Source: the human T2T-CHM13v2.0 reference genome, Homo sapiens. Taken from it: a DNA stretch of 64,000 nucleotides. The notes under the pieces are model-generated. The model ran no database searches and had not been told where the DNA came from. It worked only from the letters and a program-made list of their open reading frames with translations. The stretch lies in assembly GCF_009914755.1 (NCBI RefSeq), contig NC_060925.1. One strand, written 5' to 3'. Below are positions 7,701 to 64,000 of this stretch, one piece after another. A program made the translations under genes and the position numbers. Numbering within the stretch: position 1 is the first letter of the stretch; each line of letters starts with the position of its first letter.

Positions 7701-9805
7701 TTCTGTGACAGAAGTGCCACGCTCCATATCTGAAGCTCCAGTCTCTTTGTGTGTATGGTCATGTTCCATGCTTGAACATTAAGATTCAGGTTCATACTTG
7801 GAAGGCCAGTCTCCACGCTTAGAGATTGAGATTCTACACATGGCGTGCTAAGTTCCAGTTTTATTAGTGGAGTCTGAAATTACCTTGATATTTACCTTTC
7901 TGCTCACAGAAAATCAGATTTTTTCCCATTTTAGGCCAAGTTCCTTACTTGGAGAACCAGATTCCTCTTCTACAGATCAGTTCTCATGAATGCAAGGTCT
8001 TGTTTCCTACTTAAAATTCCAAGTTCCATACTTGGAAGGTGAGATTTTGTGTCAAGTTGGCTAGATTCCATACCTGGTGGGCCAGGTGACATGCCATGAG
8101 ATTCGGGTTCCAACCTAGAAGGTCAGGTTCCAAGCCTGGAGAGAGGGATTTCTCACAGGCTCCCATGGCATGCCTGGAAGTCCTAATTCCATGCCTAAAA
8201 GGTCAAGTTCCATATCTAAAAGTAAAGGTTTCAATCCTAGAGTGTCATATGTAATGCCTGGGGAAGATCACAACTGGGGAGACTCTTCATGGCTAGACAT
8301 TCAGAATCCATGTGGGAAGGCCAGGTTCCATGTTTTAAGGGCCACATTCTACATAGAAGGAGCAAGTATTTATGCTTAGAAGTCTAGGTGTCATGGCCAG
8401 AGGTTCAAGTTCCATGCCTGTAGGGTTGGGGCTCATGGATTTCTACATTATATACTTGGAAAGGTAGACTTCACATCTAAAACACGTAAATCAGTTCCAG
8501 CTTTCCTACATGGAATGCCATATTACATGCTTTTGGGGCCAGATTCCCTGCTCAGAGGTTGAGATTTCTTTCATGGAATGCCAAGTTCCATGACTGTTGC
8601 ATGTTTCCAGTCTTGGATATTCTTGGATTCTATACATGAAGTGCCATCTTCCATGCATGGGGAGCACCAGGTTTCATGTCTTGGGCGACCAACTTCTATG
8701 ACTGAGACACAAGCTTAATGTCTGGAGTGCCAAGCAATATACTTATTAAGCCATGTTCCATATGGGGAGATTGAGATTCCACATATTGTGTTCCATTCCA
8801 TTCCTGAAAGTTTAAATTTCATGCTTGGAGATAGAGATCCTTACATGGGGTGTCAGGTTCCATGCTCTTAGGGTCAGAATCCATTCTGGAAATTGAGATT
8901 CCATACATGGAGTGCCAGATTTCATGCTTGTAGAGCCAACTTCCATGTTTGGATATTGGGATTCCACACATAGAGTGGCAGATTCTGTGCCTGGAGGCAT
9001 GGTTTTACCAATGGAGAGTCAATTCAGTGCCTGGAAGGCTACATTTCTACTCAGAAATTCAGGTTTTACCCACAGATGGCCAAGTTCCCAAAGTGGAGAG
9101 CCATATTACATTTCTTTGAATCAGGTTTCATGCTCATAACTCCATGTTTCATCTCTAGAAGTACAGATTCCATACTCGGAGGGTCATGGAACACCTGGAA
9201 GATGGCCAGGTTCCATACCTGATGGGCCAGACGCCATGACTTGCGGTTCAGGTTCAACCCACGGAAGACCATGATCCAACTTAGACAAAGAGGTTTCATA
9301 AAGCAGTAACTTATGGCATGCCTAGAAGGCCTGATTCCATGCTAGCGGCCCAGGATCCACATATAGAAGCCCAGGTTCCACACACACACATGTCGTATTT
9401 TATGCCTGGAAAGGAAGGATTCACACCTGGAGAGATATTCCATGTTTGGAAAGTCAGATTTTATATATGGAGGGACAGGTTCTGTGTTTAAAGGGATACA
9501 TTTTATACCTGTGTTGCAAGTTTTCATGCTTAGAGGCCTAGGTTCAATGCTTGGAGGTCCAGCCACTGGACCTGTACAGTGGCTTCTCATGTGGAGGACC
9601 AGATTGTATGCTTGGAAAAGGAGAAATAACACCAAGAAGACCTAAATCAGTTCCTGAAAGTTCAGAGTTCATATAGGACTTCAGGTTCTGTGTTTGGAGA
9701 TTGAGATTTCACATATGGATTGTCAGTTTCCAGCCTTGGAGAACAGGTTCCATATCTTAGATTTTTTAGAGAATCAATTTTCAATTTCCTAAATTCCAAA
9801 GGTAC
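4770..9805. repeat. Degenerate ~21-bp tandem array (consensus ~CCAGRTTCCATGCTTGGAGRG) with higher-order cassettes
   Basis: GGTTCCAT/GATTCCAT cores recur about every 21 nt over ~5 kb; interrupted by an MLT2 LTR. Confidence 0.88.
6848..7203. mobile_element. MLT2 (ERVL) solo LTR inserted in the 21-bp array
   Basis: Starts TG..GTTAATTTTATGTGTCAACTTGACT and ends CCTATTGGTTCTGTTTCTCTGG..CTAATACA, typical MLT2 termini. Confidence 0.88.
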
Positions 9806-11283: not shown

Positions 11284-13521
11284 ATTTTGCATTATTTCAA
11301 AGAGAAGGTGAGGTCACACATTTACTTCCAACAGATCAACATTATATCTTCAAGTTAGCAAAAGCAATTGAAAGTAGGTAGTGGCATTCTATATTTCCAT
11401 AAATGCTCCTTTAGACTTGTAAAAAAATTGTCATTAATTTTGGCCAAAAGCTTATTGATGTCATAAAACCATACTCAGTTTTTACTTGGACACATTCTCC
11501 TGCTGTTCCTCATCAACCACTTTGTGGGTTTAGTCATTCAAAGTATGTACTTACTAGATTTAGATTAATTCAATGGAGATATGTTGTGAATTCAACTGAA
11601 AATAATGCACTTAAATAATAATTACTGTATCTTTTGTAATCAGCACACTTACCAGAGCTTCAACACCTGCCTTTCCTTTTGCTATTTATTTCCACAAGAT
11701 AGATTAAACTACATTTTTAACAGTAGAACATTTACTTATGTAGAACAAAATGTTCCTAAGCTGTAAACTACTGTGTAATGACCTGAACACTCTAGAAAGC
11801 CAGCTTCATTACATTTGTTTTGGGAGTGCGCACATAAAATGTTGAAGGACCACTGTATTAAAAGGCTATTAGCATAATCTCTAGGAGACACAACCAGAAA
11901 ACCAAGCATAGAGGCTGAGCAGCCAGAACCAATACTGCTACCGCTGTCCCTGCCACTCAACACAGGCCGAATAGTGGGCAGGGATGCTATGCCAAGCCCC
12001 TGCCTTGATTCTCTCTGGAAACTGGATGTATCTTTGCTGCCTCTCTGCTGTCACCTGAAGGGATTCCCTCAGGACCCCGTCTTCATGACTTCAGTCTTCC
12101 ACACTGAAATCACATGCAGGAGCACTGATTGGTGGAGTCTGTGCCACAATTTTTCCTCACTTCAAGGGAATCTGGGAAAATTTGGCCTCTATTTTCAAAA
12201 GGCAGACTCACTAGATGGGAGAGTCCCAAATATAAAGAGTATTCAAAGCAACTAGAGAGCTTAGAAAAAAAAAAAAGAATGACAAATGCTATCACACAAA
12301 GTATATAATAACACATGATTTTAAAAACAAATATTTTCTTTAATTCATTACATGATCGAGGATTGCATTTATGATGTTCATTTTACTCTAATGCTTTACT
12401 ATAACACTGAGCCAGTTTTATGTTTCTCCCCATTCAAAAAATGATGCATGCTCCTCAAATTTACTTTAAATTAATTGCATGAAAAAGGATGATTAGTCAA
12501 TAAATAAGTCTTGAAAAGACATATTCTATAGTGTTCGGTTTGGGGTTTTCATATTAAAATACACATTGAAATTTACTACATGATATAACAAGAAAAAAAC
12601 TACTTTCAAGGCCTGATATTTGATTCTTCTATCTTGTATTTGAGAAACCAATGTATTTTACAGATTTTTACAAAACAAAGTAGACATTAATTCCACTTTT
12701 AGGGATGTAAATCCCCCAGGGTAACATGGTAAACCTGTCACGGATCATGACCCACTGGATAGGAAACACTGTTTTACTATTCTCTGGGAGGTATGTGAAT
12801 CTCAACTTCCTGTTGCTTCCTGAATCTACTTGTGACACAGTCACAACTGGAGTGGCAGTAGCTAATCCCGGACTGTCCCTGCTGCTTGAGATCATCTAAT
12901 CAGTCACTCCTCCACCTCATCTTTGTCTGTTTGATGTTGAAATTGTATTACATGCTTGAACTGATCAGCAATTAGATGGCTAGAGACCATTTTGACTGGC
13001 TGCCTCCCAGTCCTGCAATAAAACACAACAAAACTGTAAAACTAACCCAACCCAAGAAACCAGAGAACTAACCCAACCCAAGAAACCAGAGGACTCCCTG
13101 CGCAAGAAATCCACACTGGCCCTAGAGTGTCCCACGCAGGTTTGAACAGCAACCCTGGACCTGTGCCGCAAACTCAAGTGCAAGGGGACTCCGGTGGACC
13201 CTGTAATGGCCTATCTGATTTGGCTTCTCATTTACAGAGAATGGAGACTTTACACACCACAATGTATTATTTGCTTAAAGGTGCTTAGAAAGAACAACCT
13301 GAAACCTTTTAATCTTATTTGTTCATGTAGAAATGAAACCGTTGAGACCTTATCTTAATGCATATAGTATTCCAGTTGTAATCAGCAACCTTTTAGTTAA
13401 AGGAAAGTAACAGCAGGTTGAGATTGTTACTTTTCCTTTTACCAACCCATCAAATGGAGACAAGGGACTAGATTAAATACTAAAACAGGGAACTAATCTT
13501 TCAGCAGCCCTATAGGAGTTA

Positions 13522-60058: not shown

Positions 60059-61060
<1,002 letters not shown>

Positions 61061-61077
61061 CTCCAACCCGGTATCAG

Positions 61078-61669
61078 TTTGAATTGCCAGCGCCGCGCAC
61101 CGATTGGAAGAACTAGAGTTAGCCCCAGTCCCTCATTGGAAGGCTCCGGGGCCTCCCCTCACGAGAGCTTAGTGGCTTGAAGACCGTAGGCACCGCCCCA
61201 GTAACGGTGCTGAGATCAATTCGGCTTTCTGGTTGGCTGAGCTTGGCTCCGCCTCCGATCTCATTGGCCGGCTTCGGGAGGTTTCGGCAAACCCTGCCTT
61301 CGCCCTAGTGAAAGTGGCAAGGCACGCCCTTCCCGCTTCTTATTGGAAGAGGTTCTACAGTCTCCACCGGTCTCTACTCTTTATTGGTTAAAACTCCCCG
61401 CAACACCCCTCCTCTCTACCCCGGCCCAATTGGCCGTGCCTTAGCTCAAGAGTTTGTGTTTGGTCGTCGGTTCCACCTTAATCCCGCCCATCAGTTCTAC
61501 TTAGGGGTTCAACAACCCGGGGTGGAGCTTAATCTGTGACCACGCCTCGGCAGTGCTAGTCACACCTCCAAGTTTTGCCAGCTCCTCCCCCTCATTCCGG
61601 GCCTCTCGGGATCAGCTCTTCCTATTGGCTATGGGCCCCATCGGTCGATAGAAAACGGGCGGTGATTGG
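61078..61669. promoter_or_regulatory. CHR-like TTTGAA plus array of NF-Y CCAAT boxes
   Basis: TTTGAA 61078-61083; ATTGG at 61103, 61135, 61263, 61342, 61383, 61429 (CCAATTGG), 61624, 61665. Confidence 0.75.
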
Positions 61670-61724
61670 TAAAGGGGTGGGCTCTACTTCCCGGCGGGGT
61701 CCTGCGGAGTTGGCGGAGGCTCCT

Positions 61725-61836
61725 CCAGGGACTGGGGCACCGATCTGCGTAGAAACGGGTGGCGGGGAAGAGAGGGGAGGAGAGCTCTGAGTGGGAAGCG
61801 GAGCCGGGGGCCTGGGACCCGTCGCGTCAGAGCCAG
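61725..61836 (+). other. SRGAP2: SRGAP2 non-coding exon 1 (5' end approximate)
   Basis: Strong donor CAG|GTAAAG at 61836/61837 just downstream of CCAAT boxes; SRGAP2 is the established head-to-head partner of FAM72. Confidence 0.7.
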
Positions 61837-63615
61837 GTAAAGGCTCCTTCCCTCTTCCTTTTCTTCCTCCCGGCCGCCGGGCTGGAGCCCTGACTGAACA
61901 AACCGGGGCTGGGGCGGGAAGGAGAGGGCGCGGATGCTGCTCGCGGCATCGCCTTAGCGGTGCCGCCCGGAATCCCTCAGACCGCCCCCCCTCCACCCTC
62001 TCCAAATCTCCCAGTACAGCCCATAATACTTCTCAGGACTGCGAGTCTCTCCGCCCATCACTGTACAGCCTGGGACTCCGTCCTGGCTCACGGACCGCAG
62101 CGCAGCCGGCACCCAGCCGCCTCTCCCTTTCCTCCGCACACGGGCAGCCGCGGTCCACCGTAGGGCAGTCGTCGTTGGCATCGCGCGTAATCATCGGCCG
62201 GCCTCCTCCAGTGTCTCCCAGCCCTGGCGGACAGCCCGGGTCCCAGCCTAGGACCCAGGAGGATGGGTGTTCCGCGCAGCTTCCGGGGCTCTCCCCGAGT
62301 CCCACCCCCCGGCCCGCCCCGATGGACTTCTCTTCGCCCACTCCCATCCCTAAACCACATCTCGGCCCCCACAGTTCCTGACATCCTTGCGCTTCACGCA
62401 ACATCGCGGCCCATGATCATGCCCCAATTCCCCTCACCTCTAAGGCAGCCTTCTCCTTGCCGCCTCCCGCCTTCCGAGCGTGTGCAACTCCAATTGTCCC
62501 CGGGCTCCCTTCCAGCCTCAGGACCCCATCTCACACCCGCCTCTCGCTTCCCGCTTCCCGCTCGCCTGAACCCCGCCGCCTCTGCTCCCTGTCTTGTTCC
62601 CTCAGCGTGGCCCCTTCCTCCAGCCGCGGGAAGTGGGAGACGCTAGCGGGAGCTTCCTCCTCCCGGCGCTCGGAGGAAAAGGAAAGACCAAGTAGAAAGG
62701 GTCGCCGCTGCGGCACGCGAGGGAGCTAGTCGCCGGGCTCCGCGCTCCCGCTTGCGTCCCTCCAGCCCCCTGGGCCTCGTCCGGGGCCGGATCTTCTCGG
62801 GCACCGCCTGGTGCGAGGAGTCAGGACTGCGACCTCACCGACCTCCTCCCATCCCCAGCCTGGGATTGGGTGGGATATCTGGGATCTCTGAGCTTGGGTG
62901 TCAAAAAAATATTGGGGGTGGCATTTATAGTCACTATCGTCCCTAGCTTGAGGGAGGCGACGGCTGCCTTCCGCTCGCCGCCCCCCGGTTTTCCCGGCTC
63001 CGACCCTATCCTCTAACCCGTTTCCTGCTTCAGCTGACCACATTGTTTTCCTGGATGTGTCCCGTGCCGAGCAGGCTTTTTCCTGCAGATTTGCCCCCCC
63101 CCCCCATCAACATTTTGCTGCCAAGAGAAGCTAGTAACCAAAAACAAAACAACTGGGAGGAGGGGCGGGAGAGGAAGAAAAGTTGTGCCCTGGTGGCTTA
63201 TCCCTCCCCGGCTTTGATCCCCTTTGATGTACAGGGAGGTGCCCCGGCCGGGGGTCTGGGGCCACGTCGGGGGCTAGGTCGGGAGGGCTCCCTCGGGCTG
63301 GCCGCTGCCCAGCGCTGGCGGGGCTCAGGAGGCCGCCGAGGTGCCGCAGTCCCCGCCTGGTGCCCCGCGTTCCTGCAGTCCCCGCCCGGAGCCCGCGCAG
63401 GCGGCTGCTCCAAAGTGTTTTCTTTCAGCCTTAAAATCCGGAGGGAGCTTCCTTCCTCCCCACCTCGTAGCGCCAGGCTCTGCGGGCGGGGAGACGTTAA
63501 GCGGACAGGAATGGGCCCAGGGCGGGCTCGGAACGACGTCCCCTACCCCACCCCCGCCGCGATTAGGATCTGCGCTCTGGCTGATCGCCCCCTCCCCCTT
63601 TTCCTGCATTTACAG

Positions 63616-64000
63616 GCAAGTGAACCGGAGCAAACGACTTCCGATCCAGTCTGCGCTGTTGCGGCTCCCGTTTGGGATTTGATTTGCAGCATCTTTGAGC
63701 CTCTACGACAAAAAACCGCGAAGCACGCCCAGCCCTCCCCCGGCACCCCGAAAAGCACCCACTCCCTCCCGGGGACACAGCTGGGCGCGTCCACACCCCC
63801 GCAGCCCCACACCATGTTGTGCGGAAGGACTTCCACTCCCCGCCTGTGTCGTTGATGTCAGACCCCAGGCCAGCCTCCGGGCGCTGCAGTTCTCCCGGCT
63901 AATGCTGAGGCTGCGGCTCCGGCTCTAGCACAGGCACCAGCCGCCGCCGCACCCGGCCCCAGCGCCCACCGTCTGCATGTGCCCGCCGTAGCCGTCTGCC
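63616..64000 (+). other. SRGAP2: SRGAP2 exon 2, 5' UTR portion (runs past window end; coding ATG not in window)
   Basis: Polypyrimidine tract CCCTCCCCCTTTTCCTGCATTTACAG| at 63615; GC-rich leader with several uATGs. Confidence 0.72.

What the first reader, a model, noticed from the sequence alone, without database searches (positions are those of the whole stretch)
63814..63928. Three SRGAP2-leader uORFs chained by stop-start overlaps (TGATG, TAATG)
Seen: uORF1 63814-63855 (ACCATGT context; MLCGRTSTPRLCR*) ends in TGA whose A starts uORF2 63855-63902 (MSDPRPASGRCSSPG*). Its TAA overlaps the ATG of uORF3 63902-63928 (MLRLRLRL*). The three tile all three frames with no gap, and no ATG precedes them in the inferred spliced leader. 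Established: UAAUG/UGAUG overlaps are the signature of termination-reinitiation coupling in some viruses and in bacterial operons. Inference: a possible ribosome relay that sets SRGAP2 dosage and would also be carried by duplicated paralogues.
Basis: partly seen in the sequence, partly recalled or inferred. Interest (0 to 1): 0.7.

Follow-up and report, generated by a model that had tools for sequence, protein, structure and literature searches.

The report
Three chained uORFs in SRGAP2 leader

Summary
uORF1 is 63814-63855, uORF2 is 63855-63902 and uORF3 is 63902-63928. They are linked by TGATG and TAATG and lie in SRGAP2 exon 2.

The main ATG lies at 64158, just past the window. Longer annotated leaders carry one earlier ATG, at 61631.

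The chain is not rare. It appears in 0.22% (1-nt overlaps only) to 2.3% (ATGA overlaps included) of 20,000 dinucleotide shuffles of the leader. It also occurs at three other places in this same window.

All three human-specific paralogue copies carry it unchanged, but they are too young for that to be informative.

Published HeLa 40S footprinting lists all four uORF stop codons. 40S builds up in DENR knockout cells at the uORF2 and uORF4 stops. Main-ORF translational efficiency (TE) falls only about 0.3-0.4 log2 and is not a hit.

No TURBS motif lies near either overlap, and uAUG2-4 have weak Kozak contexts.

Best reading: an ordinary multi-uORF leader working by leaky scanning and conventional reinitiation. 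Stop-start coupling is untested and unlikely. Conservation across mammals could not be tested here.

The parts
61727..61836 (+). SRGAP2 non-coding exon 1 of NM_015326.5; holds no ATG
   Evidence: Hub annotation; ATG scan; sequence
63616..64000 (+). Part of SRGAP2 exon 2 inside the window. The exon runs to 64224 and the main ATG is at 64158, both beyond the window.
   Evidence: Acceptor ...ttacag|gcaag at 63615/63616; rest of exon and main ATG read from L001
63814..63855 (+). uORF1, 13 codons plus TGA; A at -3, T at +4. This is the only uAUG in a good Kozak context.
   Evidence: 40S at its stop is listed in HeLa but does not rise in DENR knockout (log2 -0.505).
63853..63857 (+). TGATG: the uORF1 stop shares its A with uAUG2
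63855..63902 (+). uORF2, 15 codons plus TAA; T at -3, T at +4 (weak context)
   Evidence: 40S builds up at its stop in DENR knockout HeLa (log2 1.757, hit).
63900..63904 (+). TAATG: the uORF2 stop shares its A with uAUG3
63902..63928 (+). uORF3, 8 codons plus TAG; C at -3, C at +4 (weak context). An in-frame CTG lies at 63884.
   Evidence: SPECtre call for 63884-63928 in SH-SY5Y in 1 of 4 libraries. 40S at its stop is unchanged in DENR knockout (0.172).
It ends 166 nt before the main ATG.
   Evidence: 40S builds up at its stop in DENR knockout HeLa (log2 1.856-1.886, hit).
61631..61651 (+). 6-codon ATG uORF upstream of the RefSeq exon 1 start. It would be present only in leaders with a longer exon 1.
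   Evidence: Only ATG in 61400-61836. The uORF index numbers and positions in the Ensembl SRGAP2B and SRGAP2C models fit it; this link is an inference.
63813..63960 (-). Alternative FAM72A first exon on the opposite strand; it covers the whole uORF1-3 chain
   Evidence: Hub annotation; a minus-strand GT donor fits AC at 63811-63812

Best explanation
This is an ordinary multi-uORF 5' leader, and the stop-start overlaps are incidental.

On the full-length leader, a scanning 43S complex first meets uAUG1, 308 nt from the cap and in a good context (A at -3), and most complexes start there. uORF1 is short (13 codons). After termination at UGA, part of the 40S subunits therefore stay on the mRNA and move on without initiator tRNA.

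Reinitiation in place at the overlapping uAUG2 should be rare, because ternary complex must first be reacquired. uAUG2, uAUG3 and uAUG4 are all in weak context. They are reached mainly in three ways:
- by leaky scanning;
- by conventional reinitiation after a spacer (uAUG3 lies 46 nt and uAUG4 121 nt past the uORF1 stop);
- on transcripts that start inside exon 2.

All four uORFs end at least 166 nt before the main AUG at 64158 (A at -3). The main ORF is therefore reached by reinitiation and leaky scanning. The net effect is a moderate, largely constitutive damping of SRGAP2 translation, shared by SRGAP2B, SRGAP2C and the third copy.

Post-termination 40S recycling at the uORF2 and uORF4 stops needs DENR-MCTS1.

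Shown: the sequence layout, the contexts, the distances, and 40S on the stop codons in HeLa.
Inferred: the routes ribosomes take and the size of the effect.
For: - Layout, contexts and distances.
- Chains of this kind arise in 0.22-2.3% of 20,000 shuffles and at other places in the same window.
- No TGGGA within 180 nt upstream of either overlap and none inside a uORF.
- RNA fold of 63790-64000 is not more stable than shuffles (z = -0.86). No Rfam match in the region.
- Review passages: reinitiation after short uORFs needs time or distance to rebind eIF2 ternary complex, and a 1-nt overlap 'likely precludes' it. Preferred spacers are tens to hundreds of nt.
- HeLa 40S footprinting: all four uORF stops are among the 9,982 listed. 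uORF2 and uORF4 are among the 891 with DENR-dependent build-up; uORF1 and uORF3 are not.
- TE in DENR knockout: SRGAP2 -0.38 and -0.36, SRGAP2B -0.36, SRGAP2C -0.32, none among the 517 hits. This fits partial dependence on reinitiation.
- Mouse Srgap2 TE is unchanged on Denr knockdown (-0.083, adjusted p 0.79).
Against: - uORF2 shows clear termination-linked 40S build-up despite a weak uAUG2 context. This is what a relay from uORF1 would also give.
- The 40S signal at the uORF2 stop sits 2 nt from uAUG3 and cannot be told apart from an initiating 40S.
- Reads map equally to all four gene copies (identical values for SRGAP2B and SRGAP2C), so the source gene is unknown.
- No initiation-site profiling, no start-site data for brain, and no cross-species alignment could be consulted.
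- The damping effect on the main ORF is inferred, not measured.
Confidence: 0.6

Rival explanations
1. True stop-start relay. After uORF1 and uORF2, the post-termination 40S stays held by eIF3/eIF4F still bound after so few codons. It reinitiates in place on the overlapping AUG. DENR-MCTS1 or eIF2D may evict the last tRNA and deliver Met-tRNAi without eIF2. Each ribosome would then pass through up to three or four termination events, and the main-ORF yield would be the product of the reinitiation efficiencies.
For: - Exact 1-nt overlaps twice in a row.
- uORFs of 13, 15 and 8 codons, short enough for factor retention (passages on eIF3/eIF4F after short uORFs).
- DENR-dependent 40S build-up exactly at the TAATG junction.
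- DENR-MCT-1 and eIF2D can load Met-tRNAi when an AUG sits at the P site (review passage).
- Cellular precedents under discussion: SLAMF1 and GAD UGAUG.
Against: - No TURBS core near either overlap.
- Weak contexts at uAUG2 and uAUG3.
- No DENR effect at the uORF1 TGATG junction (-0.505) or at the uORF3 stop (0.172).
- Main-ORF TE change in DENR knockout is small and not a hit.
- The layout is within chance.
- The review judges a 1-nt overlap unfavourable for short-uORF reinitiation.
Confidence: 0.12
2. Start-site choice, not ribosome relay, decides which uORF is used. Transcripts starting at about 63813 put uAUG1 next to the cap, where it is skipped, so uAUG2 comes first. Transcripts starting at about 63860 have uAUG3 first. 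Transcripts starting further downstream carry few or no uORFs. The chain would then be three alternative first uORFs of a broad CpG-island promoter.
For: - ENST00000419187 begins at about 63813.
- ENST00000605610 / NM_001300952.1 begins at about 63860.
- An older description gives SRGAP2 22 exons, that is, starting with the present exon 2.
- Exon 2 lies in CpG-rich DNA (CpG observed/expected 0.72-0.90).
- An antisense FAM72A exon starts at 63960 (hub table), which suggests initiation activity here.
- Inefficient use of cap-proximal AUGs is recalled knowledge, not taken from any call.
Against: - The 5' ends of these models may be incomplete cDNAs.
- The selected RefSeq model splices exon 1 to a good acceptor at 63616.
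- The paralogue models place uORF1 more than 500 nt from the 5' end.
- No CAGE or long-read 5' end data were available here.
Confidence: 0.2
3. The uORF peptides themselves are functional micropeptides or nascent-peptide stallers.
For: None beyond the ORFs being open and visited by ribosomes.
Against: - The peptides are 13, 15, 8 and 4 residues of low-complexity, GC-driven composition.
- They fall below the length at which the tools here can compare peptides.
- No conservation data are available.
Confidence: 0.02

Closest known systems
TURBS-dependent termination-reinitiation (calicivirus VP1/VP2, influenza B M1/BM2)
   Same: The stop and restart codons share bases (UAAUG, AUGA, UGAUG), and the frame changes at the junction.
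   Different: The viral cases follow long ORFs. They need a structured TURBS with a UGGGA core complementary to 18S rRNA helix 26, at a fixed short distance upstream. Here the upstream ORFs are 13 and 15 codons. The nearest TGGGA is 180 nt upstream and lies outside any uORF.
Human SLAMF1 long-isoform leader (four uORFs, the last overlapping the main AUG by UGAUG)
   Same: A cellular leader with four short uORFs and a 1-nt UGAUG overlap, raised as a possible hybrid of short-uORF and TURBS reinitiation (review passage).
   Different: In SLAMF1 the overlap is with the main ORF and a UGGGA-like core was reported. In SRGAP2 the overlaps join uORFs to each other, and every uORF ends at least 166 nt before the main AUG.
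Shank1 dendritic mRNA leader (uORF0 stop overlapping uAUG3 in UGAUG)
   Same: A neuronal mRNA in which one uORF stop overlaps the next uAUG in UGAUG.
   Different: In Shank1 the tested logic is bypass. Ribosomes translating uORF0 read past uAUG3 and then reinitiate at the main AUG. Coupling at the overlap was not the mechanism.
GCN4 / ATF4 delayed-reinitiation leaders
   Same: Several short uORFs, with access to the main ORF by reinitiation whose timing depends on ternary complex.
   Different: ATF4 relies on a last uORF that overlaps the main ORF. No SRGAP2 uORF overlaps the main ORF, so a stress switch is not built in.
DENR-MCTS1-dependent uORFs (Bohlen 2020)
   Same: 40S builds up at the uORF2 and uORF4 stop codons in DENR knockout HeLa cells.
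   Different: The penultimate codons here are GGC and CCG, not the ATG, GCG or CTG named in the paper's text. The main-ORF TE drop is not a hit.
Bacterial and archaeal translational coupling at ATGA/TGATG
   Same: The same overlapping letters (abstract of PMC6728339, listing).
   Different: A prokaryotic mechanism between long genes in operons. It does not apply to cap-dependent 40S scanning. The resemblance is only in the sequence.

Membership tests
TURBS-mediated termination-reinitiation | Stop and restart codons overlap or lie within a few nt | tested here: met
   TGATG at 63853-63857 and TAATG at 63900-63904
TURBS-mediated termination-reinitiation | UGGGA core (motif 1) at a short, fixed distance upstream of the restart site, inside the upstream ORF | tested here: not met
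   TGGGA occurs only at 61792, 61813 and 63673. The nearest is 180 nt before the first junction, and none lies inside a uORF. Feature definition.
TURBS-mediated termination-reinitiation | Motif 2/2* stem presenting motif 1; structure beyond background | tested here: not met
   With no motif 1 there is nothing for a stem to present. The fold of 63790-64000 has z = -0.86 against 200 shuffles.
TURBS-mediated termination-reinitiation | Downstream ORF expression depends on termination of the upstream ORF | not testable with these tools
   Needs reporters
Reinitiation-permissive short-uORF leader (GCN4/ATF4 type) | Two or more short uORFs ahead of the main ORF, the first short enough to allow reinitiation | tested here: met
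   Four uORFs of 13, 15, 8 and 4 codons
Reinitiation-permissive short-uORF leader (GCN4/ATF4 type) | A last inhibitory uORF that overlaps or abuts the main ORF, so that delayed reinitiation switches the main ORF on | tested here: not met
   The last uORF ends 166 nt before the main ATG. The ATF4 layout is described.
Reinitiation-permissive short-uORF leader (GCN4/ATF4 type) | Main-ORF translation rises or resists when eIF2-alpha is phosphorylated | not tested
DENR-MCTS1-dependent uORF mRNAs | 40S build-up on the uORF stop codon in DENR knockout | tested here: met
   Published table: uORF2 1.757 and uORF4 1.856-1.886 are hits; uORF1 -0.505 and uORF3 0.172 are not. 891 hits among 9,982 uORF stops. 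Reads are multi-mapping.
DENR-MCTS1-dependent uORF mRNAs | Main-ORF TE significantly reduced in DENR knockout | tested here: not met
   SRGAP2 -0.38 and -0.36, SRGAP2B -0.36, SRGAP2C -0.32, hit flag 0. Mouse Srgap2 -0.083, adjusted p 0.79.
DENR-MCTS1-dependent uORF mRNAs | Penultimate codon of the DENR-dependent class named in the text (ATG, GCG, CTG) | tested here: not met
   Penultimate codons are CGT, GGC, CTC and CCG. The main text does not mention GGC or CCG. The full codon ranking is in figures I could not see.

The most novel reading that the evidence does not exclude
The two overlaps form a DENR-MCTS1/eIF2D-served relay. A 40S that has just terminated on uORF1 or uORF2 has the next AUG within two bases of its P site. 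It is recharged there without scanning, so SRGAP2 output, and equally that of its human-specific antagonist SRGAP2C, depends on the reinitiation factor DENR. DENR loss itself disturbs cortical neuron migration (Haas 2016, abstract seen). That would tie a human-specific gene-dosage system to a specific translational control step.
Probability: 0.08. Interest if true: 0.65.

Novelty: new member of a known kind. Interest (0 to 1): 0.3.

Why it matters
SRGAP2 and its truncated human-specific copies act by dosage. SRGAP2C is reported to antagonise SRGAP2 (passages).

All four copies share an identical uORF1-3 chain. Whatever translational damping these uORFs give therefore applies equally to the gene and to its antagonist, and it cannot by itself shift their ratio.

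The practical value of this check is threefold:
- It gives a complete uORF map of the leader: four uORFs, or five with the longer exon 1.
- It shows that rows for these uORFs already exist in published 40S footprint tables.
- It gives a sharp reporter test that separates a relay from leaky scanning.

If the ordinary reading holds, this is one of many multi-uORF leaders.

Tried and rejected

Papers or supplements not obtainable:
- Duffy et al., human brain Ribo-seq: journal version not held. The preprint appears in the listing; I did not ask for its supplements, which the task text says are closed for preprints.
- Lee 2012 GTI-seq and Chothani 2022: not held.
- Fijalkowska 2017: supplement too large to read.
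- These sets may hold initiation-site or brain footprint data that bear directly on the claim.

Supplement searches with no uORF rows for SRGAP2:
- Ji 2015 eLife: 0 hits in 3 files; the tables may be keyed by transcript id.
- Chew 2016: 0 hits in the 1 small file held.
- Ruiz-Orera 2024: only gene-level rows in the 12 of 14 files searched.

Literature searches:
- SRGAP2 + uORF gave 1 paper, which does not discuss the leader.
- SRGAP2 + ribosome profiling + UTR gave 8 papers. The 7 listed were judged from titles and abstract starts only, and none is about this leader.

Other checks:
- Paralogue comparison as a test of constraint is uninformative: 0 variable sites in the 115-nt chain against 0.81 expected, P = 0.45.
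- RNA structure as a coupling element is rejected (z = -0.86).
- Rfam gave only a sub-threshold chance match elsewhere, at 62944-63015 on the - strand.
- The 266-aa genomic ORF 63055-63855 is rejected as a gene. It runs through the intron and exists only in unspliced DNA.
- Cross-species conservation could not be tested. No non-human vertebrate genome is within reach of these tools.

Full report
**Observation**

- uORF1 runs 63814-63855 (MLCGRTSTPRLCR, then TGA).
- The A of that TGA begins uORF2, 63855-63902 (MSDPRPASGRCSSPG, then TAA).
- The last A of that TAA begins uORF3, 63902-63928 (MLRLRLRL, then TAG).

Neither exon 1 of NM_015326.5 (61727-61836) nor exon 2 before 63814 holds an ATG.

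I fetched the rest of exon 2 from the window's own genome as locus L001. It shows a fourth uORF at 63977-63991 (MCPP). The main start is at 64158 (gaaaacATGa, MTSPAKFKK...), followed by a GT donor at the annotated exon end.

The statement that the ORFs 'tile all three frames' adds nothing. It follows automatically from two 1-nt overlaps.

**Is it more than chance?**

I shuffled the 652-nt spliced leader 20,000 times, keeping dinucleotide content.
- A chain of three or more ATG-ORFs joined by 1-nt (TGATG/TAATG) or 4-nt (ATGA) overlaps appeared in 2.3% of shuffles, and a chain of two in 26.5%.
- With 1-nt overlaps only, the figures are 0.22% and 8.8%.
- The shuffles carry on average 6.0 ATGs against 4 observed.

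The 64-kb window itself gives the same picture.
- Strict chains of three or more occur at four separate places on the + strand (12315, 14965, 16024 and this one) and none on the - strand.
- With ATGA overlaps allowed there are 28 chain heads on + and 11 on -, several of them inside repeats.

For one leader this is a 0.2-2% event. Across all human leaders, many are expected with no function attached to the overlaps.

**Paralogues**

The own genome holds three further copies of the exon-2 region, at 121.20 Mb (+), 143.05 Mb (+) and 144.22 Mb (-) of the same chromosome. By recalled map positions these should be SRGAP2C, SRGAP2D and SRGAP2B. No call here confirms the names.

Over 3,385 aligned bases there are 26 variable columns. 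Exon 2 has one (63959, C in SRGAP2 and T in all three copies), and the uORF1-3 chain has none.

The copies are too young for this to show constraint: 0 variable sites observed against 0.81 expected, P = 0.45.

**Which leaders carry the chain?**

The selected RefSeq model places uAUG1 308 nt from the cap. Published tables reveal other annotated 5' ends.
- ENST00000419187 begins at about 63813. This is worked out from the stated uORF position 72 for the CTG at 63884.
- ENST00000605610 (= NM_001300952.1) begins at about 63860. There uORF4 is at position 118 and numbered as the second uORF.
- In the SRGAP2C and SRGAP2B models, uORF1 sits at positions 514 and 505 and is numbered second. This fits a longer exon 1 that includes the only other ATG in 61400-61836, a 6-codon uORF at 61631.

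A review of the FAM72-SRGAP2 pair counts 22 SRGAP2 exons and a 4-kb intergenic region between the coding sequences, which matches the older model beginning with the present exon 2. The whole stretch from 60500 to 64000 is CpG-rich apart from a dip at 63000-63250.

I had no CAGE or long-read 5' end data. The share of mRNAs that carry all four uORFs is therefore unknown.

**Ribosome evidence in print**

Searches for SRGAP2 with uORF, and with ribosome profiling and UTR, found no paper that discusses this leader. Rows for it do exist in supplementary tables.

Bohlen et al. 2020 (PMC7494916; passages and supplement rows read) measured 40S footprints on 9,982 uORF stop codons in HeLa cells. They found 40S build-up in DENR knockout at 891 of them. 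Reads cannot be assigned among the identical copies, so the SRGAP2-family values below are pooled.

| uORF | Last two codons and stop | log2 ratio | Hit? |
|---|---|---|---|
| uORF1 | TGT CGT TGA | -0.505 | no |
| uORF2 | CCC GGC TAA | 1.757 | yes |
| uORF3 | CGG CTC TAG | 0.172 | no |
| uORF4 | CCG CCG TAG | 1.856-1.886 | yes |

In the same study, main-ORF TE in DENR knockout is -0.38 and -0.36 log2 for SRGAP2, -0.36 for SRGAP2B and -0.32 for SRGAP2C. None is among the 517 hits.

In mouse NIH3T3 cells with Denr knockdown, Srgap2 TE is unchanged (-0.083, adjusted p 0.79; Castelo-Szekely 2019, supplement row).

Rodriguez et al. 2019 (PMC6528255; passages and supplement rows read) list one SRGAP2 uORF in their 5% FDR full set. 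It is the CTG-extended frame of uORF3 (63884-63928), with the start site revised to ATG. It is scored in 1 of 4 SH-SY5Y libraries (SPECtre 0.162) and does not appear on any sheet other than Full Set.

Taken together, ribosomes terminate on at least uORF2 and uORF4, and there is a weak periodic signal in the uORF3 frame. None of these data show how ribosomes reach uAUG2 or uAUG3. The 40S signal at the uORF2 stop lies 2 nt from uAUG3.

**Mechanism**

The Kozak contexts are as follows.

| Start codon | -3 | +4 |
|---|---|---|
| uAUG1 | A | T |
| uAUG2 | T | T |
| uAUG3 | C | C |
| uAUG4 | T | T |
| Main AUG | A | A |

Distances from the uORF1 stop are 46 nt to uAUG3, 121 nt to uAUG4 and 302 nt to the main AUG. 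uORF4 ends 166 nt before the main AUG.

Review passages give three relevant rules.
- Reinitiation after short uORFs needs the 40S to rebind eIF2 ternary complex while it traverses a spacer.
- A 1-nt overlap 'likely precludes' this mode.
- In-place restart in viruses depends on a TURBS element with a UGGGA core paired to 18S rRNA helix 26. Preferred spacers are given.

The leader has TGGGA only at 61792, 61813 and 63673. These are at least 180 nt before the first junction and outside every uORF. The region folds no better than shuffles (z = -0.86), and it matches no Rfam family.

I therefore read the leader as a conventional multi-uORF damper.
- uORF1 takes most scanning ribosomes on full-length leaders.
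- The weak uAUGs are used by leaky scanning, by spaced reinitiation, and on transcripts that start inside exon 2.
- The main ORF is reached by reinitiation and leaky scanning.
- DENR-MCTS1 clears post-termination 40S at two of the four stops.

I give this reading 0.6. The relay gets 0.12, since uORF2 termination despite a weak start codon, and the DENR signal exactly at TAATG, keep it alive. A start-site-choice reading, which overlaps with the first, gets 0.2.

**Comparison with known systems**

The closest cellular parallels are two.
- The SLAMF1 leader has four uORFs, the last overlapping the main AUG in UGAUG, and its mechanism is unresolved.
- In the Shank1 leader a uORF stop overlaps uAUG3 in UGAUG, and experiments showed bypass rather than coupling.

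The leader fails the defining TURBS test. It also lacks the overlapping last uORF of ATF4. It meets one of three DENR-target criteria.

It is a new member of the known kind 'multi-uORF leader', in a gene of high interest.

**What is left open**

Mammalian conservation, brain start sites, initiation-site profiling and reporter tests are all untested here. Several potentially decisive supplements could not be read.

Noticed in passing
window 63977-63991: Fourth ATG uORF (MCPP, then TAG) between the chain and the main ATG. Its stop is one of the stronger DENR-dependent 40S build-up sites in the published HeLa table, at ranks 619-641 of 9,982.
   Followed up: yes
window 61624-61669 and 61426-61433: Inverted CCAAT boxes (ATTGG at 61624 and 61665; CCAAT at 61426 and ATTGG at 61429) lie just upstream of SRGAP2 exon 1, in the promoter shared with FAM72A. 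A 6-codon ATG uORF at 61631 sits between them.
   Followed up: partly
window 63813-63960 (- strand): The alternative FAM72A first exon lies antisense over the whole uORF chain. Its boundary at 63813 coincides with the 5' end I worked out for the SRGAP2 model ENST00000419187. This may reflect a real start-site cluster or a strand or 5'-end artefact in annotation.
   Followed up: no
window 63094-63105: A long C run in the intron differs among the four gene copies (63098 C/G; an extra A after 63101 in the 121.20 Mb copy).
   Followed up: no
L002 and L003 (own genome, 144.22 Mb and 143.05 Mb): These two copies are identical at all 26 variable columns of the 3.4-kb alignment, while the 121.20 Mb copy differs at several. 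This fits a very recent split, or gene conversion, between the two.
   Followed up: partly
window 8510-9222 and 12286-12391 (+ strand): Clusters of chained short ATG-ORFs (many chain heads close together), probably produced by tandem or interspersed repeats. They show how easily the stop-start pattern arises.
   Followed up: no
window 62944-63015 (- strand): Sub-threshold Rfam match to a plant-virus cap-independent translation element (23 bits against a gathering score of 40, E = 0.15). Taken as chance.
   Followed up: no
window 63055-63855 (+ strand): A 266-aa ATG-ORF in unspliced DNA runs through the intron/exon 2 boundary and ends at the uORF1 stop. It is a mechanical consequence of GC-rich, stop-poor sequence and not evidence of a gene.
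   Followed up: partly
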